DNA of 64,000 nucleotides from Eledone cirrhosa (Eukaryota), in contig OZ024745.1 of NCBI GenBank assembly GCA_964016885.1, forward strand, positions 80,910,001 through 80,974,000, given 5' to 3'. Below are positions 19,701 through 64,000 of this stretch, one piece after another. The notes beneath the pieces were generated by a model, which was given only the letters and a program-made list of their open reading frames with translations, did not search any database and was not told where the DNA came from. How positions within the stretch are numbered: position 1 is the stretch's first letter; each line of letters begins with the position of its first letter. The translations under genes and the position numbers were made by a program.

Positions 19701-19713
19701 GATCAGGGGGGCG

Positions 19714-24255: not shown

Positions 24256-24280
24256 GTGAGTACTTTGTTTCCAGAAGGTC

Positions 24281-25905: not shown

Positions 25906-26065
25906 ATGAACTACACAAGACTACTATGGAGCCAAAATTGTCCCACCAAGACCAGTCAAGACAATAAAGTGTTGACCATTACTGCATCTATTAGTCTTAT
26001 GGTCATTACTATTATCTACTATTTATGCATGTATCTTATTGGCAAAGGGAAAATTTTTAATTTCT
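25906..26065 (+). CDS. OSTM1: OSTM1 exon 5 (transmembrane exon); final exon lies outside the window
   Basis: Acceptor CTGCTATAG; MNYTRLLWSQNC matches OSTM1 MN.TR.LWS...C, followed by the hydrophobic segment VLTITASISLMVITIIYYLCMYLI. Donor T|GTGAGT at 26066, phase 1. Confidence 0.88.
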
Positions 26066-26174
26066 GTGAGTATTTAAAATTGTATTTTATTTTATCCGAG
26101 GTTTTGACTATTGTGGTTAGTGCAGGTCAGCTTCACTTAAATGAATCTAACCTGATTAAATAAATCATTTAATA

Positions 26175-29100
26175 AGCTTTACTTACCTTAGACATTGTAA
26201 ATCAGGCTCTACTTACCTTAGACATTGTAAATCAGGCTTTACTTACCTTAGTCATTGTAAATCAAGCTTTAGTTACCTTAGTCATTGTAAATCAAGCTTT
26301 ACTTACCTTAGTCATTGTAAATCAAGCTCTACTTACCTTAGTCATTGTAAATCAAGCTTTAGTTACCTTAGTCATTGTAAATCAAGCTTTAGTTACCTTA
26401 GTCATTGTAATCAGGCTCTACTTACCTTAGTCATTGTAAATCAGGCTTTACTTACCTTAGTCATTGTAAATCAAGCTTTACTTACCTTAGACATTGTAAA
26501 TCAGGCTTTACTTACCTTAGTCATTGTAAATCAAGCTCTACTTACCTTAGTCATTGTAAATCAAGCTTTACTTACCTTAGTCATTGTAAATCAAGCTCTA
26601 CTTACCTTAGTCATTGTAAATCAAGCTTTACTTACCTTAGTCATTGTAAATCAGGCTTTACGTACCTTAGTCATTGTAAATCAAGCTCTACTTACCTTAG
26701 TCATTGTAAATCAAGCTTTACTTACCTTAGTCATTGTAAATCAGGCTTTACTTACCTTAGACATTGTAAATCAAGCTTTACTTACCTTAGTCATTGTAAA
26801 TCAAGCTTTAGTTACCTTAGTCATTGTAAATCAAGCTTTACTTACCTTAGTCATTGTAAATCAAGCTCTACTTACCTTAGTCATTGTAAATCAAGCTCTA
26901 CTTACCTTAGTCATTGTAAATCAAGCTTTACTTACCTTAGTCATTGTAAATCAAGCTTTAGTTACCTTAGTCATTGTAAATCAGGCTTTACTTACCTTAG
27001 ACATTGTAAATCAAGCTTTACTTACCTTAGTCATTGTAAATCAAGCTCTACTTACCTTAGACATTGTAAATCAGGCTTTACTTACCTTAGTCATTGTAAA
27101 TCAAGCTTTAGTTACCTTAGTCATTGTAAATCAAGCTTTACTTACCTTAGTCATTGTAAATCAAGCTCTACTTACCTTAGTCATTGTAAATCAAGCTCTA
27201 CTTACCTTAGTCATTGTAAATCAAGCTCTACTTACCTTAGTCATTGTAAATCAGGCTTTACTTACCTTAGTCATTGTAAATCAGGCTTTACTTACCTTAG
27301 ACATTGTAAATCAGGCTTTACTTACCTTAGACATTGTAAATCAGGCTTTACTTACCTTAGTCATTGTAAATCAAGCTTTACGTACCTTAGACATTGTAAA
27401 TCAGGCTTTACTTACCTTAGACATTGTAAATCAAGCTTTACTTACCTTAGTCATTGTAAATCAGGCTTTACTTACCTTAGTCATTGTAAATCAGGCTTTA
27501 CTTACCTTAGACATTGTAAATCAAGCTTTACTTACCTTAGTCATTGTAAATCAGGCTTTACTTACCTTAGTCATTGTAAATCAAGCTTTAGTTACCTTAG
27601 ACATTGTAAATCAGGCTTTACTTACCTTAGACATTGTAAATCAGGCTTTACTTACCTTAGACATTGTAAATCAAGCTTTACGTACCTTAGTCATTGTAAA
27701 TCAGGCTTTACTTACCTTAGTCATTGTAAATCAAGCTTTACTTACCTTAGTCATTGTAAATCAGGCTTTACTTACCTTAGTCATTGTAAATCAAGCTTTA
27801 CTTACCTTAGACATTGTAAATCAAGCTTTACTTACCTTAGTCATTGTAAATCAAGCTTTACTTACCTTAGTCATTGTAAATCAAGCTTTACTTACCTTAG
27901 TCATTGTAAATCAAGCTTTACTTACCTTAGACATTGTAAATCAAGCTTTACGTACCTTAGACATTGTAAATCAGGCTTTACTTACCTTAGTCATTGTAAA
28001 TCAAGCTTTACTTACCTTAGTCATTGTAAATCAAGCTTTAGTTACCTTAGTCATTGTAAATCAAGCTTTACTTACCTTAGACATTGTAAATCAGGCTCTA
28101 CTTACCTTAGTCATTGTAAATCAGGCTTTACTTACCTTAGTCATTGTAAATCAGGCTTTACTTACCTTAGTCATTGTAAATCAAGCTTTACTTACCTTAG
28201 TCATTGTAAATCAAGCTTTACTTACCTTAGTCATTGTAAATCAGGCTTTACTTTCCTTAGTCATTGTAAATCAGGCTTTACTTACCTTAGACATTGTAAA
28301 TCAAGCTTTACTTACCTTAGTCATTGTAAATCAGGCTTTACTTACCTTAGTCATTGTAAATCAAGCTTTAGTTACCTTACTCATTGTAAATCAAGCTTTA
28401 GTTACCTTAGTCATTGTAAATCAAGCTTTACTTACCTTAGACATTGTAAATCAAGCTTTACTTACCTTAGTCATTGTAAATCAAGCTTTACTTACCTTAG
28501 ACATTGTAAATCAAGATTTACTTACCTTAGCCATTGTAAATCAAGCTTTACTTACCTTAGTCATTGTAAATCAAGCTCTACTTACCTTAGTCATTGTAAA
28601 TCAAGCTTTACTTACCTTAGTCATTGTAAATCAAGCTTTACTTACCTTAGACATTGTAAATCAAGATTTACTTACCTTAGTCATTGTAAATCAAGCTCTA
28701 CTTACCTTAGTTATTGTAAATCAAGCTTTAGTTACCTTAGTCATTGTAAATCAAGCTTTAGTTACCTTAGTCATTGTAAATCAAGCTTTAGTTACCTTAG
28801 TCATTGTAAATCAAGCTTTAGTTACCTTAGTCATTGTAAATCAAGCTCTACTTACCTTAGACATTGTAAATCAAGCTTTACTTACCTTAGACATTGTAAA
28901 TCAAGCTCTACTTACCTTAGTCATTGTAAATCAAGATTTACTTACCTTAGTCATTGTAAATCAAGCTCTACTTACCTTAGTCATTGTAAATCAGGCTTTA
29001 CTTACCTTAGACATTGTAAATCAGGCTTTACTTACCTTAGTCATTGTAAATCAAGCTCTACTTACCTTAGTCATTGTAAATCAAGATTTACTTACCTTAG

Positions 29101-32100
29101 TCATTGTAAATCAAGCTTTACTTACCTTAGTCATTGTAAATCAAGATTTACTTACCTTAGTCATTGTAAATCAAGCTCTACTTACCTTAGTCATTGTAAA
29201 TCAGGCTTTACTTACCTTAGACATTGTAAATCAGGCTTTACTTACCTTAGTCATTGTAAATCAAGCTCTACTTACCTTAGTCATTGTAAATCAAGATTTA
29301 CTTACCTTAGTCATTGTAAATCAAGCTTTACTTACCTTAGTCATTGTAAATCAAGATTTACTTACCTTAGTCATTGTAAATCAGGCTTTACTTACCTTAG
29401 ACATTGTAAATCAGGCTTTACTTACCTTAGACATTGTAAATCAGGCTTTACTTACCTTAGTCATTGTAAATCAAGCTCTACTTACCTTAGTCATTGTAAA
29501 TCAAGCTTTACTTACCTTAGACATTGTAAATCAAGCTTTACTTACCTTAGACATTGTAAATCAGGCTTTACTTACCTTAGTCATTGTAAATCAGGCTCTA
29601 CTTACCTTAGTCATTGTAAATCAAGCTTTACTTACCTTAGTCATTGTAAATCAAGCTTTACTTACCTTAGTCATTGTAAATCAGGCTTTACTTACCTTAG
29701 ACATTGTAAATCAGGCTTTACTTACCTTAGTCATTGTAAATCAAGCTTTACTTACCTTAGTCATTGTAAATCAGGCTTTACTTACCTTAGTCATTGTAAA
29801 TCAAGCTTTACTTACCTTAGTCATTGTAAATCAAGCTTTACTTACCTTAGTCATTGTAAATCAGGCTTTACTTACCTTAGTCATTGTAAATCAAGCTTTA
29901 CTTACCTTAGTCATTGTAAATCAAGCTTTACTTACCTTAGTCATTGTAAATCAGGCTTTACTTACCTTAGTCATTGTAAATCAGGCTTTACTTACCTTAG
30001 TCATTGTAAATCAGGCTTTACTTACCTTAGTCATTGTAAATCAAGATTTACTTACCTTAGACATTGTAAATCAGGCTTTACTTACCTTAGACATTGTAAA
30101 TCAGGCTTTACTTACCTTAGACATTGTAAATCAAGCTTTACTTACCTTAGTCATTGTAAATCAGGCTCTACTTACTTTAGTCATTGTAAATCAGGCTCTA
30201 CTTACCTTAGACATTGTAAATCAAGCTCTACTTACCTTAGTCATTGTAAATCAAGCTTTACTTACCTTAGTCATTGTAAATCAAGATTTACTTACCTTAG
30301 ACATTGTAAATCAAGCTTTACTTACCTTAGACATTGTAAATCAAGCTTTACTTACCTTAGTCATTGTAAATCAAGCTCTACTTACCTTAGACATTGTAAA
30401 TCAAGCTCTACTTACCTTAGTCATTGTAAATCAAGCTCTACTTACCTTAGTCATTGTAAATCAAGCTTTACTTACCTTAGTCATTGTAAATCAGGCTTTA
30501 CTTACCTTAGTCATTGTAAATCAGGCTTTACTTACCTTAGTTATTGTAAATCAGGCTTTACTTACCTTAGTCATTGTAAATCAGGCTTTACTTACCTTAG
30601 TCATTGTAAATCAGGCTTTACTTACCTTAGACATTGTAAATCAGGCTTTACTTACCTTAGACATTGTAAATCAGGCTTTACTTACCTTAGACATTGTAAA
30701 TCAGGCTTTACTTACCTTAGTCATTGTAAATCAGGCTTTACTTACCTTAGACATTGTAAATCAGGCTTTACTTACCTTAGACATTGTAAATCAGGCTTTA
30801 CTTACCTTAGTCATTGTAAATCAGGCTTTACTTACCTTAGACATTGTAAATCAGGCTTTACTTACCTTAGACATTGTAAATCAGGCTTTACGTACCTTAG
30901 TCATTGTAAATCAGGCTTTACTTACCTTAGACATTGTAAATCAGGCTTTACTTACCTTAGACATTGTAAATCAGGCTTTACTTACCTTAGTCATTGTAAA
31001 TCAGGCTTTACTTACCTTAGACATTGTAAATCAGGCTTTACTTACCTTAGACATTGTAAATCAGGCTTTACTTACCTTAGTCGTTGTAAATCAGGCTTTA
31101 CGTACCTTAGACATTGTAAATCAAGCTCTACTTACCTTAGTCATTGTAAATCAAGATTTACTTACCTTAGACATTGTAAATCAGGCTTTACTTACCTTAG
31201 ACATTGTAAATCAGGCTTTACGTACCTTAGTCATTGTAAATCAGGCTTTACTTACCTTAGACATTGTAAATCAGGCTTTACTTACCTTAGTCATTGTAAA
31301 TCAGGCTTTACTTACCTTAGTCATTGTAAATCAAGATTTACTTACCTTAGTCATTGTAAATCAGGCTTTACTTACCTTAGTCATTGTAAATCAGGCTTTA
31401 CTTACCTTAGACATTGTAATCAGGCTTTACTTACCTTAGTCATTGTAAATCAAGCTTTACTTACCTTAGACATTGTAATCAGGCTTTACTTACCTTAGTC
31501 ATTGTAAATCAAGATTTACTTACCTTAGACATTGTAATCAGGCTTTACTTACCTTAGACATTGTAATCAGGCTTTACTTACCTTAGACATTGTAAATCAG
31601 GCTTTACTTACCTTAGACATTGTAAATCAGGCTTTACTTACCCTAGTCATTGTAAATCAGGCTCTACTTACCTTAGTCATTGTAAATCAAGATTTACTTA
31701 CCTTAGACATTGTAATCAGGCTTTACTTACCTTAGACATTGTAATCAGGCTTTACTTACCTTAGACATTGTAAATCAGGCTTTACTTACCTTAGTCATTG
31801 TAAATCAGGCTTTACGTACCTTAGTCATTGTAAATCAGGCTCTACTTACCTTAGTCATTGTAAATCAAGATTTACTTACCTTAGACATTGTAATCAGGCT
31901 TTACTTACCTTAGACATTGTAATCAGGCTTTACTTACCTTAGACATTGTAATCAGGCTTTACTTACCTTAGACATTGTAAATCAGGCTTTACTTACCTTA
32001 GTCATTGTAAATCAGGCTCTACTTACCTTAGTCATTGTAAATCAAGATTTACTTACCTTAGACATTGTAATCAGGCTTTACTTACCTTAGACATTGTAAT

Positions 32101-35100
32101 CAGGCTTTACTTACCTTAGACATTGTAAATCAGGCTTTACTTACCTTAGTCATTGTAAATCAGGCTCTACTTACCTTAGACATTGTAAATCAGGCTTTAC
32201 TTACCTTAGACATTGTAATCAGGCTTTACTTACCTTAGACATTGTAATCAGGCTTTACTTACCTTAGACATTGTAAATCAGGCTTTACTTACCTTAGACA
32301 TTGTAAATCAGGCTTTACTTACCTTAGTCATTGTAAATCAGGCTCTACTTACCTTAGACATTGTAAATCAAGCTTTACTTACCTTAGTCATTGTCATTCA
32401 AGCTCTACTTACCTTAGTCATTGTAAATCAAGCTTTAGTTACCTTAGTCATTGTAAATCAAGCTTTACTTACCTTAGTCATTGTAAATCAAGCTCTACTT
32501 ACCTTAGCCATTGTAAATCAAGCTTTAGTTACCTTAGACATTGTAAATCAAGATTTACTTACCTTAGTCATTGTAAATCAAGCTTTACTTACCTTAGACA
32601 TTGTAAATCAAGATTTACTTACCTTAGTCATTGTAAATCAGGCTCTACTTACCTTAGTCATTGTAAATCAAGATTTACTTACCTTAGACATTGTAATCAG
32701 GCTTTACTTACCTTAGACATTGTAATCAGGCTTTACTTACCTTAGACATTGTAAATCAGGCTTTACTTACCTTAGTCATTGTAAATCAGGCTTTACGTAC
32801 CTTAGTCATTGTAAATCAGGCTCTACTTACCTTAGTCATTGTAAATCAAGATTTACTTACCTTAGACATTGTAATCAGGCTTTACTTACCTTAGACATTG
32901 TAATCAGGCTTTACTTACCTTAGACATTGTAATCAGGCTTTACTTACCTTAGACATTGTAAATCAGGCTTTACTTACCTTAGTCATTGTAAATCAGGCTC
33001 TACTTACCTTAGTCATTGTAAATCAAGATTTACTTACCTTAGACATTGTAATCAGGCTTTACTTACCTTAGACATTGTAATCAGGCTTTACTTACCTTAG
33101 ACATTGTAAATCAGGCTTTACTTACCTTAGTCATTGTAAATCAGGCTCTACTTACCTTAGACATTGTAAATCAGGCTTTACTTACCTTAGACATTGTAAT
33201 CAGGCTTTACTTACCTTAGACATTGTAATCAGGCTTTACTTACCTTAGACATTGTAATCAGGCTTTACTTACCTTAGACATTGTAATCAGGCTTTACTTA
33301 CCTTAGACATTGTAAATCAGGCTTTACTTACCTTAGTCATTGTAAATCAGGCTCTACTTACCTTAGACATTGTAAATCAAGCTTTACTTACCTTAGTCAT
33401 TGTAAATCAAGCTCTACTTACCTTAGTCATTGTAAATCAAGCTTTAGTTACCTTAGTCATTGTAAATCAAGCTTTACTTACCTTAGTCATTGTAAATCAA
33501 GCTCTACTTACCTTAGCCATTGTAAATCAAGCTTTAGTTACCTTAGACATTGTAAATCAAGATTTACTTACCTTAGTCATTGTAAATCAAGCTTTACTTA
33601 CCTTAGACATTGTAAATCAAGATTTACTTACCTTAGTCATTGTAAATCAAGCTTTACTTACCTTAGACATTGTAAATCAAGCTTTACTTACCTTAGACAT
33701 TGTAAATCAAGCTTTACTTACCTTAGTCATTGTAAATCAAGCTCTACTTACCTTAGTCATTGTAAATCAAGCTTTAGTTACCTTAGTCATTGTAAATCAA
33801 GCTTTAGTTACCTTAGTCATTGTAAATCAAGCTTTAGTTACCTTAGACATTGTAAATCAAGATTTACTTACCTTAGTCATTGTAAATCAAGCTCTACTTA
33901 CCTTAGTCATTGTAAATCAAGCTTTAGTTACCTTAGTCATTGTAAATCAAGCTTTAGTTACCTTAGTCATTGTAAATCAAGCTTTACTTACCTTAGACAT
34001 TGTAAATCAAGATTTACTTACCTTAGTCATTGTAAATCAAGCTCTACTTACCTTAGTCATTGTAAATCAAGCTTTAGTTACCTTAGTCATTGTAAATCAA
34101 GCTTTAGTTACCTTAGTCATTGTAAATCAAGCTTTACTTACCTTAGACATTGTAAATCAAGCTTTACTTACCTTAGACATTGTAAATCAAGCTTTACTTA
34201 CCTTAGTCATTGTAAATCAAGCTTTACTTACCTTAGACATTGTAAATCAAGATTTACTTACCTTAGTCATTGTAAATCAAGCTTTACTTACCTTAGTCAT
34301 TGTAAATCAAGCTCTACTTACCTTAGTCATTGTAAATCAAGCTTTACTTACCTTAGTCATTGTAAATCAAGCTTTACTTACCTTAGACATTGTAAATCAA
34401 GATTTACTTACCTTAGTCATTGTAAATCAAGCTCTACTTACCTTAGTCATTGTAAATCAAGCTTTAGTTACCTTAGTCATTGTAAATCAAGCTTTAGTTA
34501 CCTTAGTCATTGTAAATCAAGCTGTAGTTACCTTAGTCATTGTAAATCAAGCTTTAGTTACCTTAGTCATTGTAAATCAAGCTCTACTTACCTTAGACAT
34601 TGTAAATCAAGCTTTACTTACCTTAGACATTGTAAATCAAGCTCTACTTACCTTAGTCATTGTAAATCAAGATTTACTTACCTTAGTCATTGTAAATCAA
34701 GCTCTACTTACCTTAGTCATTGTAAATCAGGCTTTACTTACCTTAGACATTGTAAATCAGGCTTTACTTACCTTAGTCATTGTAAATCAAGCTCTACTTA
34801 CCTTAGTCATTGTAAATCAAGATTTACTTACCTTAGTCATTGTAAATCAAGCTTTACTTACCTTAGTCATTGTAAATCAAGATTTACTTACCTTAGTCAT
34901 TGTAAATCAAGCTCTACTTACCTTAGTCATTGTAAATCAGGCTTTACTTACCTTAGACATTGTAAATCAGGCTTTACTTACCTTAGTCATTGTAAATCAA
35001 GCTCTACTTACCTTAGTCATTGTAAATCAAGCTTTACTTACCTTAGTCATTGTAAATCAAGCTTTACTTACCTTAGACATTGTAAATCAAGATTTACTTA

Positions 35101-38100
35101 CCTTAGTCATTGTAAATCAAGCTCTACTTACCTTAGTCATTGTAAATCAAGCTTTAGTTACCTTAGTCATTGTAAATCAAGCTTTAGTTACCTTAGTCAT
35201 TGTAAATCAAGCTGTAGTTACCTTAGTCATTGTAAATCAAGCTTTAGTTACCTTAGTCATTGTAAATCAAGCTCTACTTACCTTAGACATTGTAAATCAA
35301 GCTTTACTTACCTTAGACATTGTAAATCAAGCTCTACTTACCTTAGTCATTGTAAATCAAGATTTACTTACCTTAGTCATTGTAAATCAAGCTCTACTTA
35401 CCTTAGTCATTGTAAATCAGGCTTTACTTACCTTAGACATTGTAAATCAGGCTTTACTTACCTTAGTCATTGTAAATCAAGCTCTACTTACCTTAGTCAT
35501 TGTAAATCAAGATTTACTTACCTTAGTCATTGTAAATCAAGCTTTACTTACCTTAGTCATTGTAAATCAAGATTTACTTACCTTAGTCATTGTAAATCAA
35601 GCTCTACTTACCTTAGTCATTGTAAATCAGGCTTTACTTACCTTAGACATTGTAAATCAGGCTTTACTTACCTTAGTCATTGTAAATCAAGCTCTACTTA
35701 CCTTAGTCATTGTAAATCAAGATTTACTTACCTTAGTCATTGTAAATCAAGCTTTACTTACCTTAGTCATTGTAAATCAAGATTTACTTACCTTAGTCAT
35801 TGTAAATCAGGCTTTACTTACCTTAGACATTGTAAATCAGGCTTTACTTACCTTAGACATTGTAAATCAGGCTTTACTTACCTTAGTCATTGTAAATCAA
35901 GCTCTACTTACCTTAGTCATTGTAAATCAAGCTTTACTTACCTTAGACATTGTAAATCAAGCTTTACTTACCTTAGACATTGTAAATCAGGCTTTACTTA
36001 CCTTAGTCATTGTAAATCAGGCTCTACTTACCTTAGTCATTGTAAATCAAGCTTTACTTACCTCAGTCATTGTAAATCAAGCTTTACTTACCTTAGTCAT
36101 TGTAAATCAGGCTTTACTTACCTTAGACATTGTAAATCAGACTTTACTTACCTTAGTCATTGTAAATCAAGCTTTACTTACCTTAGTCATTGTAAATCAG
36201 GCTTTACTTACCTTAGTCATTGTAAATCAAGCTTTACTTACCTTAGTCATTGTAAATCAAGCTTTACTTACCTTAGTCATTGTAAATCAAGCTTTACTTA
36301 CCTTAGTCATTGTAAATCAGGCTTTACTTACCTTAGTCATTGTAAATCAGGCTTTACTTACCTTAGTCATTGTAAATCAAGATTTACTTACCTTAGTCAT
36401 TGTAAATCAAGCTTTACTTACCTTAGTCATTGTAAATCAGGCTTTACTTACCTTAGTCATTGTAAATCAGGCTTTACTTACCTTAGTCATTGTAAATCAA
36501 GATTTACTTACCTTAGTCATTGTAAATCAAGCTTTACTTACCTTAGTCATTGTAAATCAGGCTTTACTTACCTTAGTCATTGTAAATCAAGCTCTACTTA
36601 CCTTAGTCATTGTAAATCAAGCTTTACTTACCTTAGTCATTGTAAATCAAGCTTTACTTACCTTAGACATTGTAAATCAGGCTTTACTTACCTTAGTCAT
36701 TGTAAATCAAGATTTACTTACCTTAGTCATTGTAAATCAGGCTCTACTTACCTTAGACATTGTAAATCAGGCTTTACTTACCTTAGACATTGTAAATCAG
36801 GCTTTTCTTACCTTAGACATTGTAAATCAGGCTTTACTTACCTTAGACATTGTAAATCAAGCTCTACTTACCTTAGTCATTGTAAATCAAGCTCTACTTA
36901 CCTTAGTCATTGTAAATCAAGATTTACTTACCTTAGTCATTGTAAATCAGGCTTTACTTACCTTAGTCATTGTAAATCAAGATTTACTTACCTTAGACAT
37001 TGTAAATCAGGCTTTACTTACCTTAGACATTGTAAATCAGGCTTTACTTACCTTAGACATTGTAAATCAAGCTTTACTTACCTTAGTCATTGTAAATCAG
37101 GCTCTACTTACTTTAGTCATTGTAAATCAGGCTCTACTTACCTTAGACATTGTAAATCAAGCTCTACTTACCTTAGTCATTGTAAATCCAGCTTTACTTA
37201 CCTTAGTCATTGTAAATCAAGATTTACTTACCTTAGACATTGTAAATCAAGCTTTACTTACCTTAGACATTGTAAATCAAGCTTTACTTACCTTAGTCAT
37301 TGTAAATCAAGCTCTACTTACCTTAGACATTGTAAATCAAGCTCTACTTACCTTAGTCATTGTAAATCAAGCTCTACTTACCTTAGTCATTGTAAATCAA
37401 GCTTTACTTACCTTAGTCATTGTAAATCAGGCTTTACTTACCTTAGTCATTGTAAATCAGGCTTTACTTACCTTAGTTATTGTAAATCAGGCTTTACTTA
37501 CCTTAGTCATTGTAAATCAGGCTTTACTTACCTTAGTCATTGTAAATCAGGCTTTACTTACCTTAGACATTGTAAATCAGGCTTTACTTACCTTAGACAT
37601 TGTAAATCAGGCTTTACTTACCTTAGACATTGTAAATCAGGCTTTACTTACCTTAGTCATTGTAAATCAGGCTTTACTTACCTTAGACATTGTAAATCAG
37701 GCTTTACTTACCTTAGACATTGTAAATCAGGCTTTACTTACCTTAGTCATTGTAAATCAGGCTTTACTTACCTTAGACATTGTAAATCAGGCTTTACTTA
37801 CCTTAGACATTGTAAATCAGGCTTTACGTACCTTAGTCATTGTAAATCAGGCTTTACTTACCTTAGACATTGTAAATCAGGCTTTACTTACCTTAGACAT
37901 TGTAAATCAGGCTTTACTTACCTTAGTCATTGTAAATCAGGCTTTACTTACCTTAGACATTGTAAATCAGGCTTTACTTACCTTAGACATTGTAAATCAG
38001 GCTTTACTTACCTTAGTCGTTGTAAATCAGGCTTTACGTACCTTAGACATTGTAAATCAAGCTCTACTTACCTTAGTCATTGTAAATCAAGATTTACTTA

Positions 38101-45235: not shown

Positions 45236-45595
45236 CATCATCATCATCATCATCATCAACGTTTAACGTCCGTGTTCCACGCTTGCATGGGTTTGGACGG
45301 GGGTAGTCCCACTTGAGGCAAGAGTGATTGTCTTGCTCGCATAGGACTGTCTGGCAGGTTTTCTACAGTTGGATGCCCTTCCTAACACCAACCACATTTA
45401 CAGTGTGGGTCTGGGAGGTTTTTACCGTGTTGCCTACACGGCCACATTACAGCGTGGACTGTGTGTTTTTTTGTCGTGACACCTACACGATCTCATTTGT
45501 TTCGGCCCGGATGGCGCGGCACCAACATAACTTTACATAGGACGGGGTGGTGTGGATGGGGTGGGGGTGGTGGTGGTGGGACGGGGTGTATTTTG

Positions 45596-48874: not shown

Positions 48875-49063
48875 GCGATAGTATAGGCCTCTGGCTTATG
48901 ATTGGTCCGCGTAATAATAATAATGGTGATGCGTGTGGGGGGGGGGGTCTCTGGCTTATAGTAATAATGGTGATGCGTGTGGGGGGGGGTCTCTGGCTTA
49001 TGATTGGTCCACGTATTAAGAATGGTGGTGTGTGGGGGCGGGTGGGAGGGATGTGGGGTAGCT

Positions 49064-50151
49064 AGCTGGAAGGTTATGAATGTTTACCAGCGAGTAACAA
49101 AAAGCAAAACTGCAAGATTTGTTCTGTTCAATACGACAAAAACACCGTATTTAAACCTTAATAAATAACAAAAAATACAGATTTCGGATTTTGCGGGATT
49201 GGATGTTTGTACGAAATTGTGGTGTGTGGAGGAGATAGGAAAAACGTGAACGTTACGATTACATGGTTACACCGTAGTAGGGGTAGTTGAAGCAGCAATT
49301 GTTTGGCGAAAGTGAATAAACATGAACGGGAATTTATCTTATATATATATGTGTGTGTGTGTGTGTGTAGCTAAGAGAGAGAGAGAGAGAGTGGGAAGGG
49401 GGAGAGAGAGAGAGAGAGAGTGGCTGACCGCAACCCCTCGTGAAGAAAATGGTGGGTGAGGGGTGTATGAGCGGGATTTTTGACTTTCGAGGTAGCATGA
49501 TATATATATTTAAAGTAAATTATAAGGAGTAGAATGGAAAGGATTTTGTTGTTTTTTGTTTTTTTGTTTGAGAATACGATAGAATTAGGGAATTGGAGGA
49601 TAAGCTGGAAGGTTATGAATGTTTACCAGCGAGTAACAAAAAGCAAAACTGCAAGATTTGTTCTGTTCAATACGACAAAAACACCGTATTTAAACCTTAA
49701 TAAATAACAAAAAATACAGATTTCGGATTTTGCGGGATTGGATGTTTGTACGAAATTGTGGTGTGTGGAGGAGATAGGAAAAACGTGAACGTTACGATTA
49801 CATGGTTACACCGTAGTAGGGGTAGTTGAAGCAGCAATTGTTTGGCGAAAGTGAATAAACATGAACGGGAATTTATCTTATATATATATGTGTGTGTGTG
49901 TGTGTGTAGCTAAGAGAGAGAGAGAGAGAGTGGGAAGGGGGAGAGAGAGAGAGAGAGAGTGGCTGACCGCAACCCCTCGTGAAGAAAATGGTGGGTGAGG
50001 GGTGTATGAGCGGGATTTTTGACTTTCGAGGTAGCATGATATATATATTTAAAGTAAATTATAAGGAGTAGAATGGAAAGGATTTTGTTGTTTTTTGTTT
50101 TTTTGTTTGAGAATACGATAGAATTAGGGAATTGGAGGATAAGCTGGAAGG
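49064..50151 (-). repeat. Two tandem 539-bp monomers in the LINE 5' region
   Basis: AGCTGGAAGG recurs at 49064, 49603 and 50142. The two units look identical by eye, including their internal microsatellites. Confidence 0.92.
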
Positions 50152-50155
50152 GAAT

Positions 50156-53100: not shown

Positions 53101-56100
53101 TTGTAAATCAAGCTCTACTTACCTTAGTCATTGTAAATCAAGCTCTACTTACCTTAGTCATTGTAAATCAAGCTTTACTTACCTTAGTCATTGTAAATCA
53201 GGCTTTACTTACCTTAGTCATTGTAAATCAGGCTTTACTTACCTTAGTTATTGTAAATCAGGCTTTACTTACCTTAGTCATTGTAAATCAGGCTTTACTT
53301 ACCTTAGTCATTGTAAATCAGGCTTTACTTACCTTAGACATTGTAAATCAGGCTTTACTTACCTTAGACATTGTAAATCAGGCTTTACTTACCTTAGACA
53401 TTGTAAATCAGGCTTTACTTACCTTAGACATTGTAAATCAGGCTTTACTTACCTTAGACATTGTAAATCAGGCTTTACTTACCTTAGTCATTGTAAATCA
53501 GGCTTTACTTACCTTAGACATTGTAAATCAGGCTTTACTTACCTTAGTCATTGTAAATCAGGCTTTACTTACCTTAGACATTGTAAATCAGGCTTTACTT
53601 ACCTTAGACATTGTAAATCAGGCTTTACTTACCTTAGTCATTGTAAATCAGGCTTTACTTACCTTAGACATTGTAAATCAGGCTTTACTTACCTTAGACA
53701 TTGTAAATCAGGCTTTACTTACCTTAGTCGTTGTAAATCAGGCTTTACGTACCTTAGACATTGTAAATCAAGCTCTACTTACCTTAGTCATTGTAAATCA
53801 AGATTTACTTACCTTAGACATTGTAAATCAGGCTTTACTTACCTTAGACATTGTAAATCAGGCTTTACTTACCTTAGTCATTGTAAATCAGGCTTTACTT
53901 ACCTTAGTCATTGTAAATCAAGATTTACTTACCTTAGTCATTGTAAATCAGGCTTTACTTACCTTAGTCATTGTAAATCAGGCTTTACTTACCTTAGACA
54001 TTGTAATCAGGCTTTACTTACCTTAGTCATTGTAAATCAAGCTTTACTTACCTTAGTCATTGTAAATCAAGATTTACTTACCTTAGACATTGTAAATCAA
54101 GCTTTACTTACCTTAGACATTGTAAATCAAGCTTTACTTACCTTAGTCATTGTAAATCAAGCTCTACTTACCTTAGACATTGTAAATCAAGCTCTACTTA
54201 CCTTAGTCATTGTAAATCAAGCTCTACTTACCTTAGTCATTGTAAATCAAGCTTTACTTACCTTAGTCATTGTAAATCAGGCTTTACTTACCTTAGTCAT
54301 TGTAAATCAGGCTTTACTTACCTTAGTTATTGTAAATCAGGCTTTACTTACCTTAGTCATTGTAAATCAGGCTTTACTTACCTTAGTCATTGTAAATCAG
54401 GCTTTACTTACCTTAGACATTGTAAATCAGGCTTTACTTACCTTAGACATTGTAAATCAGGCTTTACTTACCTTAGACATTGTAAATCAGGCTTTACTTA
54501 CCTTAGTCATTGTAAATCAGGCTTTACTTACCTTAGACATTGTAAATCAGGCTTTACTTACCTTAGACATTGTAAATCAGGCTTTACTTACCTTAGTCAT
54601 TGTAAATCAGGCTTTACTTACCTTAGACATTGTAAATCAGGCTTTACTTACCTTAGACATTGTAAATCAGGCTTTACGTACCTTAGTCATTGTAAATCAG
54701 GCTTTACTTACCTTAGACATTGTAAATCAGGCTTTACTTACCTTAGACATTGTAAATCAGGCTTTACTTACCTTAGTCATTGTAAATCAGGCTTTACTTA
54801 CCTTAGACATTGTAAATCAGGCTTTACTTACCTTAGACATTGTAAATCAGGCTTTACTTACCTTAGTCGTTGTAAATCAGGCTTTACGTACCTTAGACAT
54901 TGTAAATCAAGCTCTACTTATCTTAGTCATTGTAAATCAAGATTTACTTACCTTAGACATTGTAAATCAGGCTTTACTTACCTTAGACATTGTAAATCAA
55001 GCTTTACTTACCTTAGTCATTGTAAATCAAGCTTTAGTTACCTTAGTCATTGTAAATCAGGCTTTACTTACCTTAGACATTGTAAATCAAGCTTTACTTA
55101 CCTTAGTCATTGTAAATCAAGCTCTACTTACCTTAGACATTGTAAATCAGGCTTTACTTACCTTAGTCATTGTAAATCAAGCTTTAGTTACCTTAGTCAT
55201 TGTAAATCAAGCTTTACTTACCTTAGTCATTGTAAATCAAGCTCTACTTACCTTAGTCATTGTAAATCAAGCTCTACTTACCTTAGTCATTGTAAATCAA
55301 GCTCTACTTACCTTAGTCATTGTAAATCAGGCTTTACTTACCTTAGTCATTGTAAATCAGGCTTTACTTACCTTAGACATTGTAAATCAGGCTTTACTTA
55401 CCTTAGACATTGTAAATCAGGCTTTACTTACCTTAGTCATTGTAAATCAAGCTTTACGTACCTTAGACATTGTAAATCAGGCTTTACTTACCTTAGACAT
55501 TGTAAATCAAGCTTTACTTACCTTAGTCATTGTAAATCAGGCTTTACTTACTTTAGTCATTGTAAATCAGGCTTTACTTACCTTAGACATTGTAAATCAA
55601 GCTTTACTTACCTTAGTCATTGTAAATCAGGCTTTACTTACCTTAGTCATTGTAAATCAAGCTTTAGTTACCTTAGACATTGTAAATCAGGCTTTACTTA
55701 CCTTAGACATTGTAAATCAGGCTTTACTTACCTTAGACATTGTAAATCAAGCTTTACGTACCTTAGTCATTGTAAATCAGGCTTTACTTACCTTAGTCAT
55801 TGTAAATCAAGCTTTACTTACCTTAGTCATTGTAAATCAGGCTTTACTTACCTTAGTCATTGTAAATCAAGCTTTACTTACCTTAGACATTGTAAATCAA
55901 GCTTTACTTACCTTAGTCATTGTAAATCAAGCTTTACTTACCTTAGTCATTGTAAATCAAGCTTTACTTACCTTAGTCATTGTAAATCAAGCTTTACTTA
56001 CCTTAGACATTGTAAATCAAGCTTTACGTACCTTAGACATTGTAAATCAGGCTTTACTTACCTTAGTCATTGTAAATCAGGCTTTACTTACCTTAGTCAT

Positions 56101-59100
56101 TGTAAATCAAGCTTTACTTACCTTAGTCATTGTAAATCAAGCTTTACTTACCTTAGTCATTGTAAATCAGGCTTTACTTACCTTAGTCATTGTAAATCAG
56201 GCTTTACTTACCTTAGACATTGTAAATCAAGCTTTACTTACCTTAGTCATTGTAAATCAGGCTTTACTTACCTTAGTCATTGTAAATCAAGCTTTAGTTA
56301 CCTTACTCATTGTAAATCAAGCTTTAGTTACCTTAGTCATTGTAAATCAAGCTTTACTTACCTTAGACATTGTAAATCAAGCTTTACTTACCTTAGTCAT
56401 TGTAAATCAAGCTTTACTTACCTTAGACATTGTAAATCAAGATTTACTTACCTTAGTCATTGTAAATCAAGCTTTACTTACCTTAGTCATTGTAAATCAA
56501 GCTCTACTTACCTTAGTCATTGTAAATCAAGCTTTACTTACCTTAGTCATTGTAAATCAAGCTTTACTTACCTTAGACATTGTAAATCAAGATTTACTTA
56601 CCTTAGTCATTGTAAATCAAGCTCTACTTACCTTAGTCATTGTAAATCAAGCTTTAGTTACCTTAGTCATTGTAAATCAAGCTTTAGTTACCTTAGTCAT
56701 TGTAAATCAAGCTTTAGTTACCTTAGTCATTGTAAATCAAGCTTTAGTTACCTTAGTCATTGTAAATCAAGCTCTACTTACCTTAGACATTGTAAATCAA
56801 GCTTTACTTACCTTAGACATTGTAAATCAAGCTCTACTTACCTTAGTCATTGTAAATCAAGATTTACTTACCTTAGTCATTGTAAATCAAGCTCTACTTA
56901 CCTTAGTCATTGTAAATCAGGCTTTACTTACCTTAGACATTGTAAATCAGGCTTTACTTACCTTAGTCATTGTAAATCAAGCTCTACTTACCTTAGTCAT
57001 TGTAAATCAAGATTTACTTACCTTAGTCATTGTAAATCAAGCTTTACTTACCTTAGTCATTGTAAATCAAGATTTACTTACCTTAGTCATTGTAAATCAA
57101 GCTCTACTTACCTTAGTCATTGTAAATCAGGCTTTACTTACCTTAGACATTGTAAATCAGGCTTTACTTACCTTAGTCATTGTAAATCAAGCTCTACTTA
57201 CCTTAGTCATTGTAAATCAAGATTTACTTACCTTAGTCATTGTAAATCAAGCTTTACTTACCTTAGTCATTGTAAATCAAGATTTACTTACCTTAGTCAT
57301 TGTAAATCAGGCTTTACTTACCTTAGACATTGTAAATCAGGCTTTACTTACCTTAGACATTGTAAATCAGGCTTTACTTACCTTAGTCATTGTAAATCAA
57401 GCTCTACTTACCTTAGTTATTGTAAATCAAGCTTTACTTACCTTAGATATTGTAAATCAAGCTTTACTTACCTTAGACATTGTAAATCAGGCTTTACTTA
57501 CCTTAGTCATTGTAAATCAGGCTCTACTTACCTTAGTCATTGTAAATCAAGCTTTACTTACCTTAGTCATTGTAAATCAAGCTTTACTTACCTTAGTCAT
57601 TGTAAATCAGGCTTTACTTACCTTAGACATTGTAAATCAGGCTTTACTTACCTTAGTCATTGTAAATCAAGCTTTACTTACCTTAGTCATTGTAAATCAG
57701 GCTTTACTTACCTTAGTCATTGTAAATCAAGCTTTACTTACCTTAGTCATTGTAAATCAAGCTTTACTTACCTTAGTCATTGTAAATCAGGCTTTACTTA
57801 CCTTAGTCATTGTAAATCAAGCTTTACTTACCTTAGTCATTGTAAATCAAGCTTTACTTACCTTAGTCATTGTAAATCAGGCTTTACTTACCTTAGTCAT
57901 TGTAAATCAGGCTTTACTTACCTTAGTCATTGTAAATCAAGATTTACTTACCTTAGTCATTGTAAATCAAGCTTTACTTACCTTAGTCATTGTAAATCAG
58001 GCTTTACTTACCTTAGTCATTGTAAATCAAGCTCTACTTACCTTAGTCATTGTAAATCAAGCTTTACTTACCTTAGACATTGTAAATCAGGCTTTACTTA
58101 CCTTAGACATTGTAAATCAAGCTCTACTTACCTTAGTCATTGTAAATCAAGCTCTACTTACCTTAGTCATTGTAAATCAAAATTTACTTACCTTAGTCAT
58201 TGTAAATCAGGCTTTACTTACCTTAGTCATTGTAAATCAAGATTTACTTACCTTAGACATTGTAAATCAGGCTTTACTTACCTTAGACATTGTAAATCAG
58301 GCTTTACTTACCTTAGACATTGTAAATCAAGCTTTACTTACCTTAGTCATTGTAAATCAGGCTCTACTTACTTTAGTCATTGTAAATCAGGCTCTACTTA
58401 CCTTAGACATTGTAAATCAAGCTCTACTTACCTTAGTCATTGTAAATCAAGCTTTACTTACCTTAGTCATTGTAAATCAAGATTTACTTACCTTAGACAT
58501 TGTAAATCAAGCTTTACTTACCTTAGACATTGTAAATCAAGCTTTACTTACCTTAGTCATTGTAAATCAAGCTCTACTTACCTTAGACATTGTAAATCAA
58601 GCTCTACTTACCTTAGACATTGTAAATCAAGCTTTACTTACCTTAGTCATTGTAAATCAGGCTCTACTTACTTTAGTCATTGTAAATCAGGCTCTACTTA
58701 CCTTAGACATTGTAAATCAAGCTCTACTTACCTTAGTCATTGTAAATCAAGCTTTACTTACCTTAGTCATTGTAAATCAAGATTTACTTACCTTAGACAT
58801 TGTAAATCAAGCTTTACTTACCTTAGACATTGTAAATCAAGCTTTACTTACCTTAGTCATTGTAAATCAAGCTCTACTTACCTTAGACATTGTAAATCAA
58901 GCTCTACTTACCTTAGTCATTGTAAATCAAGCTCTACTTACCTTAGTCATTGTAAATCAAGCTTTACTTACCTTAGTCATTGTAAATCAGGCTTTACTTA
59001 CCTTAGTCATTGTAAATCAGGCTTTACTTACCTTAGTTATTGTAAATCAGGCTTTACTTACCTTAGTCATTGTAAATCAGGCTTTACTTACCTTAGACAT

Positions 59101-62100
59101 TGTAAATCAGGCTTTACTTACCTTAGACATTGTAAATCAGGCTTTACTTACCTTAGACATTGTAAATCAGGCTTTACTTACCTTAGTCATTGTAAATCAG
59201 GCTTTACTTACCTTAGACATTGTAAATCAGGCTTTACTTACCTTAGACATTGTAAATCAGGCTTTACTTACCTTAGTCATTGTAAATCAGGCTTTACTTA
59301 CCTTAGACATTGTAAATCAGGCTTTACTTACCTTAGACATTGTAAATCAGGCTTTACGTACCTTAGTCATTGTAAATCAGGCTTTACTTACCTTAGACAT
59401 TGTAAATCAGGCTTTACTTACCTTAGACATTGTAAATCAGGCTTTACTTACCTTAGTCATTGTAAATCAGGCTTTACTTACCTTAGACATTGTAAATCAG
59501 GCTTTACTTACCTTAGACATTGTAAATCAGGCTTTACTTACCTTAGTCGTTGTAAATCAGGCTTTACGTACCTTAGACATTGTAAATCAAGCTCTACTTA
59601 CCTTAGTCATTGTAAATCAAGATTTACTTACCTTAGACATTGTAAATCAGGCTTTACTTACCTTAGACATTGTAAATCAGGCTTTACGTACCTTAGTCAT
59701 TGTAAATCAGGCTTTACTTACCTTAGACATTGTAAATCAGGCTTTACTTACCTTAGTCATTGTAAATCAGGCTTTACTTACCTTAGTCATTGTAAATCAA
59801 GATTTACTTACCTTAGTCATTGTAAATCAGGCTTTACTTACCTTAGTCATTGTAAATCAGGCTTTACTTACCTTAGACATTGTAATCAGGCTTTACTTAC
59901 CTTAGTCATTGTAAATCAAGCTTTACTTACCTTAGTCATTGTAAATCAAGATTTACTTACCTTAGACATTGTAAATCAAGCTTTACTTACCTTAGACATT
60001 GTAAATCAAGCTTTACTTACCTTAGTCATTGTAAATCAAGCTCTACTTACCTTAGACATTGTAAATCAAGCTCTACTTACCTTAGTCATTGTAAATCAAG
60101 CTCTACTTACCTTAGTCATTGTAAATCAAGCTTTACTTACCTTAGTCATTGTAAATCAGGCTTTACTTACCTTAGTCATTGTAAATCAGGCTTTACTTAC
60201 CTTAGTTATTGTAAATCAGGCTTTACTTACCTTAGTCATTGTAAATCAGGCTTTACTTACCTTAGTCATTGTAAATCAGGCTTTACTTACCTTAGACATT
60301 GTAAATCTGGCTTTACTTACCTTAGACATTGTAAATCAGGCTTTACTTACCTTAGACATTGTAAATCAGGCTTTACTTACCTTAGTCATTGTAAATCAGG
60401 CTTTACTTACCTTAGACATTGTAAATCAGGCTTTACTTACCTTAGACATTGTAAATCAGGCTTTACTTACCTTAGTCATTGTAAATCAGGCTTTACTTAC
60501 CTTAGACATTGTAAATCAGGCTTTACTTACCTTAGACATTGTAAATCAGGCTTTACGTACCTTAGTCATTGTAAATCAGGCTTTACTTACCTTAGACATT
60601 GTAAATCAGGCTTTACTTACCTTAGACATTGTAAATCAGGCTTTACTTACCTTAGTCATTGTAAATCAGGCTTTACTTACCTTAGACATTGTAAATCAGG
60701 CTTTACTTACCTTAGACATTGTAAATCAGGCTTTACTTACCTTAGTCGTTGTAAATCAGGCTTTACGTACCTTAGACATTGTAAATCAAGCTCTACTTAC
60801 CTTAGTCATTGTAAATCAAGATTTACTTACCTTAGACATTGTAAATCAGGCTTTACTTACCTTAGACATTGTAAATCAGGCTTTACGTACCTTAGTCATT
60901 GTAAATCAGGCTTTACTTACCTTAGACATTGTAAATCAGGCTTTACTTACCTTAGTCATTGTAAATCAGGCTTTACTTACCTTAGTCATTGTAAATCAAG
61001 ATTTACTTACCTTAGTCATTGTAAATCAGGCTTTACTTACCTTAGTCATTGTAAATCAGGCTTTACTTACCTTAGACATTGTAATCAGGCTTTACTTACC
61101 TTAGTCATTGTAAATCAAGCTTTACTTACCTTAGACATTGTAATCAGGCTTTACTTACCTTAGTCATTGTAAATCAAGCTTTACTTACCTTAGACATTGT
61201 AAATCAGGCTTTACTTACCTTAGTCATTGTAAATCAAGATTTACTTACCTTAGACATTGTAATCAGGCTTTACTTACCTTAGACATTGTAATCAGGCTTT
61301 ACTTACCTTAGACATTGTAAATCAGGCTTTACTTACCTTAGACATTGTAAATCAGGCTTTACTTACCTTAGTCATTGTAAATCAGGCTCTACTTACCTTA
61401 GTCATTGTAAATCAAGATTTACTTACCTTAGACATTGTAATCAGGCTTTACTTACCTTAGACATTGTAATCAGGCTTTACTTACCTTAGACATTGTAAAT
61501 CAGGCTTTACTTACCTTAGTCATTGTAAATCAGGCTTTACGTACCTTAGTCATTGTAAATCAGGCTCTACTTACCTTAGTCATTGTAAATCAAGATTTAC
61601 TTACCTTAGACATTGTAATCAGGCTTTACTTACCTTAGTCATTGTAAATCAAGCTTTACTTACCTTAGACATTGTAATCAGGCTTTACTTACCTTAGTCA
61701 TTGTAAATCAAGATTTACTTACCTTAGACATTGTAATCAGGCTTTACTTACCTTAGACATTGTAATCAGGCTTTACTTACCTTAGACATTGTAAATCAGG
61801 CTTTACTTACCTTAGACATTGTAAATCAGGCTTTACTTACCCTAGTCATTGTAAATCAGGCTCTACTTACCTTAGTCATTGTAAATCAAGATTTACTTAC
61901 CTTAGACATTGTAATCAGGCTTTACTTACCTTAGACATTGTAATCAGGCTTTACTTACCTTAGACATTGTAAATCAGGCTTTACTTACCTTAGTCATTGT
62001 AAATCAGGCTTTACGTACCTTAGTCATTGTAAATCAGGCTCTACTTACCTTAGTCATTGTAAATCAAGATTTACTTACCTTAGACATTGTAATCAGGCTT

Positions 62101-64000
62101 TACTTACCTTAGACATTGTAATCAGGCTTTACTTACCTTAGACATTGTAATCAGGCTTTACTTACCTTAGACATTGTAAATCAGGCTTTACTTACCTTAG
62201 TCATTGTAAATCAGGCTCTACTTACCTTAGTCATTGTAAATCAAGATTTACTTACCTTAGACATTGTAATCAGGCTTTACTTACCTTAGACATTGTAATC
62301 AGGCTTTACTTACCTTAGACATTGTAAATCAGGCTTTACTTACCTTAGTCATTGTAAATCAGGCTCTACTTACCTTAGACATTGTAAATCAGGCTTTACT
62401 TACCTTAGACATTGTAATCAGGCTTTACTTACCTTAGACATTGTAATCAGGCTTTACTTACCTTAGACATTGTAAATCAGGCTTTACTTACCTTAGACAT
62501 TGTAAATCAGGCTTTACTTACCTTAGTCATTGTAAATCAGGCTCTACTTACCTTAGACATTGTAAATCAAGCTTTACTTACCTTAGTCATTGTCATTCAA
62601 GCTCTACTTACCTTAGTCATTGTAAATCAAGCTTTAGTTACCTTAGTCATTGTAAATCAAGCTTTACTTACCTTAGTCATTGTAAATCAAGCTCTACTTA
62701 CCTTAGCCATTGTAAATCAAGCTTTAGTTACCTTAGACATTGTAAATCAAGATTTACTTACCTTAGTCATTGTAAATCAAGCTTTACTTACCTTAGACAT
62801 TGTAAATCAAGATTTACTTACCTTAGTCATTGTAAATCAGGCTCTACTTACCTTAGTCATTGTAAATCAAGATTTACTTACCTTAGACATTGTAATCAGG
62901 CTTTACTTACCTTAGACATTGTAATCAGGCTTTACTTACCTTAGACATTGTAAATCAGGCTTTACTTACCTTAGTCATTGTAAATCAGGCTTTACGTACC
63001 TTAGTCATTGTAAATCAGGCTCTACTTACCTTAGTCATTGTAAATCAAGATTTACTTACCTTAGACATTGTAATCAGGCTTTACTTACCTTAGACATTGT
63101 AATCAGGCTTTACTTACCTTAGACATTGTAATCAGGCTTTACTTACCTTAGACATTGTAAATCAGGCTTTACTTACCTTAGTCATTGTAAATCAGGCTCT
63201 ACTTACCTTAGTCATTGTAAATCAAGATTTACTTACCTTAGACATTGTAATCAGGCTTTACTTACCTTAGACATTGTAATCAGGCTTTACTTACCTTAGA
63301 CATTGTAAATCAGGCTTTACTTACCTTAGTCATTGTAAATCAGGCTCTACTTACCTTAGACATTGTAAATCAGGCTTTACTTACCTTAGACATTGTAATC
63401 AGGCTTTACTTACCTTAGACATTGTAATCAGGCTTTACTTACCTTAGACATTGTAATCAGGCTTTACTTACCTTAGACATTGTAATCAGGCTTTACTTAC
63501 CTTAGACATTGTAAATCAGGCTTTACTTACCTTAGTCATTGTAAATCAGGCTCTACTTACCTTAGACATTGTAAATCAAGCTTTACTTACCTTAGTCATT
63601 GTAAATCAAGCTCTACTTACCTTAGTCATTGTAAATCAAGCTTTAGTTACCTTAGTCATTGTAAATCAAGCTTTACTTACCTTAGTCATTGTAAATCAAG
63701 CTCTACTTACCTTAGCCATTGTAAATCAAGCTTTAGTTACCTTAGACATTGTAAATCAAGATTTACTTACCTTAGTCATTGTAAATCAAGCTTTACTTAC
63801 CTTAGACATTGTAAATCAAGATTTACTTACCTTAGTCATTGTAAATCAAGCTTTACTTACCTTAGACATTGTAAATCAAGCTTTACTTACCTTAGACATT
63901 GTAAATCAAGCTTTACTTACCTTAGTCATTGTAAATCAAGCTCTACTTACCTTAGTCATTGTAAATCAAGCTTTAGTTACCTTAGTCATTGTAAATCAAG
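50156..64000. repeat. 30-bp satellite array, right block (about 460 units, runs off the window)
   Basis: Same unit and variant set as the left block. Confidence 0.98.

What the first reader, a model, noticed from the sequence alone, without database searches (positions are those of the whole stretch)
26175..64000. Intronic satellite whose sense RNA would carry about 1,100 copies of the U1 snRNA 5' end
Seen: most units contain TACTTACCT, and the array begins about 110 nt after the OSTM1 exon-5 donor. Common variation falls mainly elsewhere in the unit (CAA/CAG, TCA/ACA, GCT/GAT, TTT/TCT), although minority AGTTACC and ACGTACC variants break the motif. Known: the U1 snRNA 5' end is AUACUUACCUG and pairs with AG|GUAAGU. 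Inference: OSTM1 pre-mRNA or the excised intron would carry a large array of U1-mimic 9-mers able to pair with 5' splice sites, including the gene's own exon-3 donor CAG|GTAAGT. It could act as a splice-site decoy or a nuclear RNA scaffold. The unit has no sense-strand AATAAA/ATTAAA, which is compatible with read-through. A neutral origin by amplification of a fragment that happened to contain a reversed donor is also plausible.
Basis: partly seen in the sequence, partly recalled or inferred. Interest (0 to 1): 0.75.

Follow-up and report, generated by a model that had tools for sequence, protein, structure and literature searches.

The report
Private satellite fills octopod OSTM1 intron
In what is likely an octopus genome, a 30-base repeat found at no other place fills about 105,000 bases of one intron of the OSTM1 gene; most copies hold nine letters that match the start of the splicing RNA U1, but those letters are no better preserved than the rest and a normally spliced message exists, so the match is likely a coincidence in a repeat that likely grew in place.

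Summary
The array is real and larger than reported: 3,170 units of 30 bp over about 105 kb in a 110-kb intron 5 of OSTM1. In the window 969 of 1,098 units hold TACTTACCT. All 2,709 genome-wide hits of a 22-base probe lie here. One spliced contig joins exons 1-6 across the array, so the pre-mRNA likely carries it and is spliced normally. The 9-mer is not specially conserved: 1.67 variant alleles per position inside and outside. Giant satellites fill 6 of 59 sampled 10-kb stretches, so about 0.5-3 such matches are expected by chance. Naked-RNA pairing with the gene's donors is predicted, but no function is shown. The scan has noted other private satellite-filled introns in this genome. Verdict: ordinary local intron expansion.

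The parts
21346..21850 (+). OSTM1 exon 1 (ATG at 21,497; 5' part from the spliced contig)
   Evidence: PF09777, E 1.1e-5, 25.4 bits, just under the 25.8 cut-off
23050..23167 (+). OSTM1 exon 2
23873..23988 (+). OSTM1 exon 3, donor CAG|GTAAGTCA
24142..24255 (+). OSTM1 exon 4
25906..26065 (+). OSTM1 exon 5, donor TCT|GTGAGTAT. It opens intron 5 (about 110 kb); exon 6 is at L009:1933-2045, extended coordinates 135,933-136,045
26066..26175 (+). 110 nt of unique intron before the array, with overlapping ATTAAA (26,155) and AATAAA (26,159)
26176..45235 (+). 30-bp satellite, first segment (19,060 bp). Sense strand holds the U1-like 9-mer; minus strand reads as the perfect donor AAG|GTAAGTA (558 copies)
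45236..50154 (-). RTE-type non-LTR retrotransposon, 4,919 bp: two 539-bp 5' monomers, open 1,099-aa frame (45,596-48,895, stop to stop; endonuclease, RT, PHD-like), (GAT)n tail; young family with 99.6-99.9% identical copies elsewhere
   Evidence: the label RTE rests on recalled features (single APE-RT frame, short tandem tail), not on a tree
50155..64000 (+). 30-bp satellite, second segment; continues beyond the window to 75,434, then a second LINE copy, then a third segment to 130,971 (extended coordinates)
31397..51387 (+). 19,991-bp block (satellite plus LINE) repeated with no mismatch 30,199 bp downstream

Best explanation
The array is a single-locus minisatellite inside OSTM1 intron 5 that likely arose by tandem copying of a 30-bp piece of that intron and likely has no function tied to its U1-like 9-mer. 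Shown: it is confined to this intron, both flanks are unique, the coding exons are intact, a contig splices exon 5 to exon 6 across it, and the 9-mer varies as often as the other positions. Inferred: one local copy was duplicated, then grew by slippage and unequal exchange of ever larger blocks (identical runs of 44 to 501 units), took up a young LINE, and duplicated again with it. Inferred: polymerase II reads through, U1 snRNP occupies the exon-5 donor before and while the repeat emerges, and the intron is removed whole or in steps and degraded. The 9-mer is a reversed donor-like string that the founder piece likely held by chance.
For: Single locus: 2,709 of 2,709 genome hits of the 22-base probe are in this array, 0 on the reverse strand. 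Local origin: at the left edge unique intron runs into the first unit and at the right edge the last unit runs into unique intron; no U1-gene ancestry above control in 10 of 10 alignments; no Rfam family near its cut-off. No selection on the 9-mer (3,170 units): 1.67 alleles per position inside and outside; positions with an allele at 1% or more 2 of 9 vs 5 of 21 (Fisher p 1.0); invariant 1 of 9 vs 2 of 21; Mann-Whitney p 0.47; permutation p 0.18; six other 9-base windows are more often intact. Normal splicing: a 1,156-nt contig of run X4 covers exons 1-5, exon 6 and 30 nt that map to a seventh exon at 139,256. Chance: TACTTACCT occurs 32,885 times in the genome, 2,850 here, fewer than its reversed control (44,893); chance per 30-bp unit strand is 1.5e-4 for this 9-mer and 1.0e-3 for any U1 9-mer in shuffled units; 6 of 59 evenly spaced 10-kb samples are filled by other 26-49-bp satellites, and a 424-bp tandem repeat on C1 also holds the 9-mer (L096). 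Recent growth: 19,991 bp duplicated without a mismatch.
Against: Naked-RNA models do let the repeat pair with donors: the repeat 11-mer binds the six donors at -4.1 to -10.7 kcal/mol, close to U1's -3.2 to -12.1. In a fold of the exon-5 end plus 20 units the donor pairs with the array with P 0.49, against 0.28 mean for shuffled units, though 9 of 40 shuffles were higher. For donors 2 and 3 the unit beats 97-98% of 500 shuffles. The array is so young that purifying selection would be hard to see. The transcript evidence is one contig from one run of one study, of a sample (S2) other than the DNA sample (S1); contigs drop rare isoforms, and that sample's array was not seen. The orthologous intron in other octopods could not be read.
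Confidence: 0.8

Rival explanations
1. Antisense, LINE-driven donor array (LL2R-like). The LINE's 5' monomers would start minus-strand transcription that runs past its (GAT)n tail straight into perfect donors AAG|GUAAGUA; bound U1 snRNP would be concentrated at the locus and the RNA could run on antisense into OSTM1 or pair with the sense intron RNA.
For: The minus-strand site binds U1's 5' end at -12.2 kcal/mol, as strongly as the gene's best donor. 558 such sites lie downstream of LINE copy 1 and 746 downstream of copy 2, with no AATAAA or ATTAAA on that strand in either segment; the last AATAAA in the LINE is at 4,391 of 4,919, inside its reading frame. The LINE frame is intact and its family is young. 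Chicken LL2R has the same layout and recruits snRNPs (bioRxiv 10.64898/2026.03.19.712899; abstract and two results sections read).
Against: No evidence that this LINE copy is transcribed; its copies elsewhere are 99.6-99.9% identical, so short reads could not be assigned. That the monomers are a promoter is an analogy recalled from mouse L1, not tested. The LINE came after the array, so this would be an accident, and the donor motif is no more conserved than the rest.
Confidence: 0.08
2. One reading: sense repeat RNA works as a U1-mimic that masks 5' splice sites of OSTM1 or of other transcripts, or as a nuclear scaffold.
For: The pre-mRNA must contain the array if the animal carries it. About 2,850 copies, 8.7% of all genomic copies of the 9-mer. 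Predicted duplexes with the donors are similar to U1's, and the exon-5 donor is predicted to be less often free with the array present (P unpaired 0.42 to 0.26).
Against: No excess conservation. The 9-mer is predicted fully unpaired only 6.5% of the time. The match lacks U1 nt 1 and 11, and there is no U1 body or other snRNA-like structure; U1's binding is helped by its proteins (own knowledge; PMC4383343 seen only as a search listing). The strongest target, donor 3, opens a 153-nt intron 2.2 kb upstream of the array, and the one donor that must stay open during array transcription (exon 5) pairs weakly (-7.1, matched by 32% of shuffles). The observed contig is normally spliced.
Confidence: 0.06
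3. The array exists but the assembly overstates its size: the 30-kb repeat of satellite plus LINE is a stacked duplicate.
For: 19,991 bp, LINE included, are identical at offset 30,199, and the next 247 units are identical at almost the same offset.
Against: Rare variant units recur in many nested blocks of different sizes, as expected of real stepwise growth. A DNA contig of run X1 confirms the unique left flank up to the first unit. Removing the duplicate would still leave about 2,300 units.
Confidence: 0.06

Closest known systems
Avian intron 'sequence stuttering' (Hron et al. 2026, PMC12954441; abstract and part 1 of one results section read)
   Same: A locally born repeat expanded inside one intron, not crossing into exons, coding sequence intact, apparently recent.
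   Different: Cephalopod, not a bird dot chromosome; far more homogeneous (1.4 differences per 30 bases) and about 105 kb long; length variation between individuals not tested.
Drosophila Y-linked satellite-filled giant introns, kl-3 and kl-5 (PMC11207136 abstract and outline; PMC6508621 search listing only)
   Same: A protein gene transcribed through a long satellite intron and spliced correctly.
   Different: Those are megabase introns in spermatocyte genes; this is 110 kb in a conserved membrane-protein gene with a private 30-bp unit; no dedicated expression programme is shown here.
Chicken LL2R tandem repeat RNA (bioRxiv 10.64898/2026.03.19.712899; abstract and sections 25 and 29 read)
   Same: On the minus strand: a LINE upstream of a tandem array rich in donors and poor in poly(A) signals.
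   Different: LL2R transcription and snRNP recruitment are shown; nothing of that is shown here. Here the donor strand is antisense to a host gene and the LINE sits inside the array.
Human F7 intron-7 37-bp VNTR with 5' pseudo-sites (PMC1557585; abstract and outline read)
   Same: A minisatellite near an exon end whose units each hold a donor sequence that leaves normal splicing intact.
   Different: In F7 the first unit spans the exon boundary and the donors face sense; here the array starts 110 nt into the intron and the donor is reversed.

Membership tests
Locally expanded intronic repeat (intron stuttering) | Repeat block confined to one intron, not crossing exons | tested here: met
   26,176-130,971 lies between exon 5 (ends 26,065) and exon 6 (starts 135,933)
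Locally expanded intronic repeat (intron stuttering) | Local origin, not a dispersed family | tested here: met
   2,709 of 2,709 exact probe hits at this locus; diverged copies elsewhere would escape an exact probe
Locally expanded intronic repeat (intron stuttering) | Coding region stays intact | tested here: met
   Open frame over exons 1-5; exon 6 87% identical to Octopus sinensis over 30 aa; spliced contig
Locally expanded intronic repeat (intron stuttering) | Intron length varies among individuals | not testable with these tools
   Only short-read contigs of one study were listed
Locally expanded intronic repeat (intron stuttering) | Sits on an avian dot chromosome (the described cases) | tested here: not met
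   134.7-Mb contig of a genome whose OSTM1 is closest to Octopus proteins; so a counterpart, not a member of the avian set
   Inferred from the exon 5 to exon 6 junction in one contig; repeat RNA itself not seen
   Predicted for naked RNA only
   equal allele counts per position; permutation p 0.18
   One normally spliced contig; 1 X4 record laid on exon 6; contigs drop rare forms
LL2R-type donor-rich architectural RNA | LINE upstream on the donor strand | tested here: met
   Two LINE copies on the minus strand with 5' monomers; promoter activity untested
LL2R-type donor-rich architectural RNA | Excess of donors and no poly(A) signals | tested here: met
   558 and 746 donors, 0 AATAAA/ATTAAA in the two segments downstream of the LINEs; acceptors on that strand not scored
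LL2R-type donor-rich architectural RNA | The donor strand is transcribed | not tested
   No stranded reads listed; both read-laying runs went to the exons
LL2R-type donor-rich architectural RNA | Recruits snRNPs into a locus-bound body | not testable with these tools
   Needs RNA-FISH with immunostaining
F7-type exon-spanning VNTR with 5' pseudo-sites | First unit spans the exon-intron boundary; donors face sense | tested here: not met
   Array starts 110 nt into the intron; the donor string is on the minus strand

The most novel reading that the evidence does not exclude
The array is an accidental two-faced splicing element: the young antisense LINE drives read-through RNA with hundreds of perfect donors that gathers U1 snRNP at the OSTM1 locus, while the sense intron RNA with about 2,850 U1-like 9-mers pairs with it or with OSTM1's own donors, so that repeat length and LINE activity tune OSTM1 splicing or termination.
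Probability: 0.07. Interest if true: 0.65.

Novelty: new member of a known kind. Interest (0 to 1): 0.2.

Why it matters
As found, it is one more case showing that this cephalopod genome tolerates 100-kb private satellites inside ordinary genes, and that about 2,850 donor-complementary 9-mers in a pre-mRNA do not prevent a correctly spliced message. It is a ready natural test of whether tethered RNA can compete with U1 snRNP. If the LINE-driven antisense reading were true, it would be an invertebrate counterpart of chicken LL2R that formed by accident within a gene.

Tried and rejected
U1-gene origin: U1 genes here are preceded by aagc and have an aatcag string about 60 nt upstream, both also seen in the unit, but 10 of 10 flank-to-U1 alignments scored no better than controls that kept the 9-mer (31-74% of 500 shuffles reached the score); Rfam gave 5 weak hits at E 4.3-9.5, all far below their cut-offs. 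Coding repeat: two of three plus frames of the unit are open, but they are not spliced into the contig and single-base deletions shift them (66 of 1,098 units). Gene ending at exon 5: read-through would give 319 aa with a poly(A) signal at 26,155-26,164, but exon 6 is conserved and used; an early-ending isoform is not excluded. Antisense exon as the source of the reversed donor: no long open frame on the minus strand in the 570 bases at the right edge; not tested on RNA. Special fold: 8 units fold at -28.0 kcal/mol, shuffled units at -33.6 +/- 15.7. Recursive splice sites: the unit's two AG are followed by CT/GC and TC/AC, not GT. Run search: no RNA holder listed; X4 is not on record as RNA and is taken as RNA-derived because its contig is spliced and only one OSTM1 family match exists in the genome. 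Literature: 7 searches showed no paper on a U1-like satellite or on an OSTM1 intronic repeat in the listings seen; the library lacks most subscription papers, and supplements of the bioRxiv preprint were not seen. The 59 sample stretches were evenly spaced, not random, and lean to the first parts of C1-C4; L096 was picked on purpose and left out of that count.
Full report
What was checked. The window is G000:C5:80,910,001-80,974,000 of a 3.0-Gb animal genome. The closest proteins to its OSTM1 exon 5 are from Octopus sinensis and O. bimaculoides at 75% identity (2 hits among 5 candidates), so the animal is likely an octopod. 'Extended coordinates' continue the window's numbering into the next 200 kb, fetched as L002-L021.

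The array. Tandem Repeats Finder gives one 30-bp array from 26,176 to the window end. Tiling gives 1,098 complete units in the window; 969 hold TACTTACCT, 75 TAGTTACCT, 38 TACGTACCT, and 16 other forms. The raw motif count is 970, all on the plus strand. The array continues to 130,971: 3,170 complete units of 78 types, 2,847 with the 9-mer intact, in three segments of 19.1, 25.3 and 50.6 kb. Two 4,919-bp insertions separate them and are identical to each other. It is a minus-strand non-LTR retrotransposon with an open 1,099-aa frame (endonuclease, RT, PHD-like), a (GAT)n tail and two 539-bp 5' monomers; five copies fetched from other contigs are 99.6-99.9% identical. A 22-base probe has 2,709 exact hits in the whole genome and all 2,709 lie in this array.

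The gene. Exons 1-5 lie at 21,497-26,065 and read in one open frame, with PF09777 matches in the three exons scanned, one above the cut-off. The Octopus proteins place exon 6 beyond the array, at 135,933. Run X4 has one 1,156-nt contig that covers exons 1-5 as record positions 1-1,013 and exon 6 as 1,014-1,126 (same length and depth, so taken as the same contig); its last 30 nt map to a seventh exon at 139,256. Intron 5 is thus about 110 kb, the array is intronic and sense, and a normally spliced message exists. Limits: one contig, one study, a sample other than the DNA sample, and contigs drop rare forms. The unit lacks AATAAA and ATTAAA, but the intron has them, 90 nt after the donor and five times in each LINE.

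The U1 match. Five of five fetched U1 genes begin ATACTTACCTG, so the unit matches U1 nt 2-10. Over 3,170 units the 9 motif positions carry 15 different variant alleles and the other 21 carry 35, 1.67 per position in both; positions with a common allele are 2 of 9 and 5 of 21 (Fisher p 1.0); permutation p is 0.18; and the motif shares rank 7-8 of 30 nine-base windows for intactness. Allele frequencies are a poor measure here because blocks of units were copied together (identical runs of up to 501 units). The array is young, which limits the power of this test.

How surprising is the match? TACTTACCT occurs 17,313 plus 15,572 times in the genome, fewer than its reversed control (22,077 plus 22,816). 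Outside the array that is 1.5e-4 per 30-bp unit strand; any of the three U1 9-mers appears in 1.0e-3 of shuffled units. In 59 evenly spaced 10-kb samples, 6 are filled by other satellites of 26-49 bp and 14 hold an array of 1 kb or more; none of those 15 arrays has a U1 9-mer. If about a tenth of the genome is such arrays and they average 100 kb (my assumption), there are about 3,000, and 0.5 to 3 would carry the match on a given strand. A 424-bp tandem repeat on C1 also holds the 9-mer (L096). The unit is not derived from a U1 gene.

Could it pair? In naked-RNA models, yes. The repeat 11-mer against donors 1-6 gives -7.3, -7.4, -10.1, -10.7, -7.1 and -4.1 kcal/mol; U1's 5' end gives -7.1, -7.2, -12.1, -10.6, -7.4 and -3.2. 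The 9-mer is fully unpaired 6.5% of the time. Folding the exon-5 end with 20 units, the donor pairs with the array with P 0.49; shuffled units give a mean of 0.28 and 9 of 40 exceed 0.49. A two-unit strand beats 97-98% of 500 shuffles for donors 2 and 3, and is unremarkable for donors 1, 4, 5 and 6 (11-32% of shuffles as good). In cells U1 snRNP binds with protein help and early in transcription (own knowledge), introns 1-4 are 153-1,650 nt and precede the array, and the observed product is normal.

Most likely account. A 30-bp piece of intron 5 was copied in place and grew by block duplications; a LINE landed in it and was duplicated with a 30-kb block (19,991 bp still without a mismatch, which could also be an assembly duplicate). 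The gene is transcribed through it and spliced. Shown: anatomy, single locus, splicing across, no excess conservation. Inferred: the order of events, read-through in the animal that carries the array, and lack of function.

The other strand. Read on the minus strand each unit is a perfect donor, AAG|GTAAGTA, which binds U1's 5' end at -12.2 kcal/mol. Each LINE copy points into such donors, 558 and 746 of them, with no poly(A) hexamer on that strand. Chicken LL2R is a donor-rich tandem array transcribed from a LINE promoter that gathers snRNPs (bioRxiv 10.64898/2026.03.19.712899; abstract and two sections read). This is the more plausible way the array could touch U1, but no transcription of that strand was tested.

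Comparison. It is not an F7-type VNTR (PMC1557585, abstract), since the donors are reversed and the array does not span the exon end. Earlier unchecked notes of this scan describe several other private satellite-filled introns in this genome, one with sense donors; none was listed near this place. Seven paper searches showed no report of a U1-like satellite in the listings seen.

Verdict. Observation partly confirmed, interpretation partly supported (read-through yes, decoy function no). New member of a known kind; interest 0.2. The novel two-strand reading keeps about 7%.

Noticed in passing
window 45,236-50,154 and G000:C5:80,985,435-80,990,353: A young RTE-type LINE whose 5' end is built of tandem 539-bp monomers: two here, more in the copies in L097 and L100, fewer in L099 and L101. 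40 places match the 431-base 5' probe in full at 96-100%.
   Followed up: partly
window 31,397-51,387 and +30,199: Zero-mismatch duplication of 19,991 bp including the LINE: a very recent event or an assembly duplicate.
   Followed up: partly
L009, extended coordinates 136,045 and 139,256: OSTM1 has a further intron just after the stop codon (donor AAA|GTAAAT) and a seventh, 3'-untranslated exon, seen as the contig's last 30 nt.
   Followed up: partly
window 16,733-19,980: A broken LTR-retrotransposon-like element: direct terminal repeats at 92-94% identity about 3.0 kb apart and an integrase-core match below the Pfam cut-off. Described only.
   Followed up: no
window 14,505-15,399: A long inverted repeat with arms of about 430 bases at 90-94% complementarity around a 36-nt loop, 6 kb upstream of OSTM1.
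   Followed up: no
window 1,681-2,850 and 10,559-11,777: A PIF1-type helicase fragment split by a stop (Helitron-like; label recalled) and an older, frameshifted relative of the LINE.
   Followed up: no
L032-L036 (U1 genes): All five fetched U1 genes share an aatcag string about 60 nt upstream, an AT-rich TATA-like stretch near -30 and aagc just before +1; 42 U1 matches were scored, many in tandem arrays of about 2.67-kb period.
   Followed up: no
L038, L039, L048, L059, L074, L077: Six of 59 sampled 10-kb stretches are filled by satellites of 26-49 bp, each with a different unit; 14% of sampled bases lie in arrays of 1 kb or more.
   Followed up: partly
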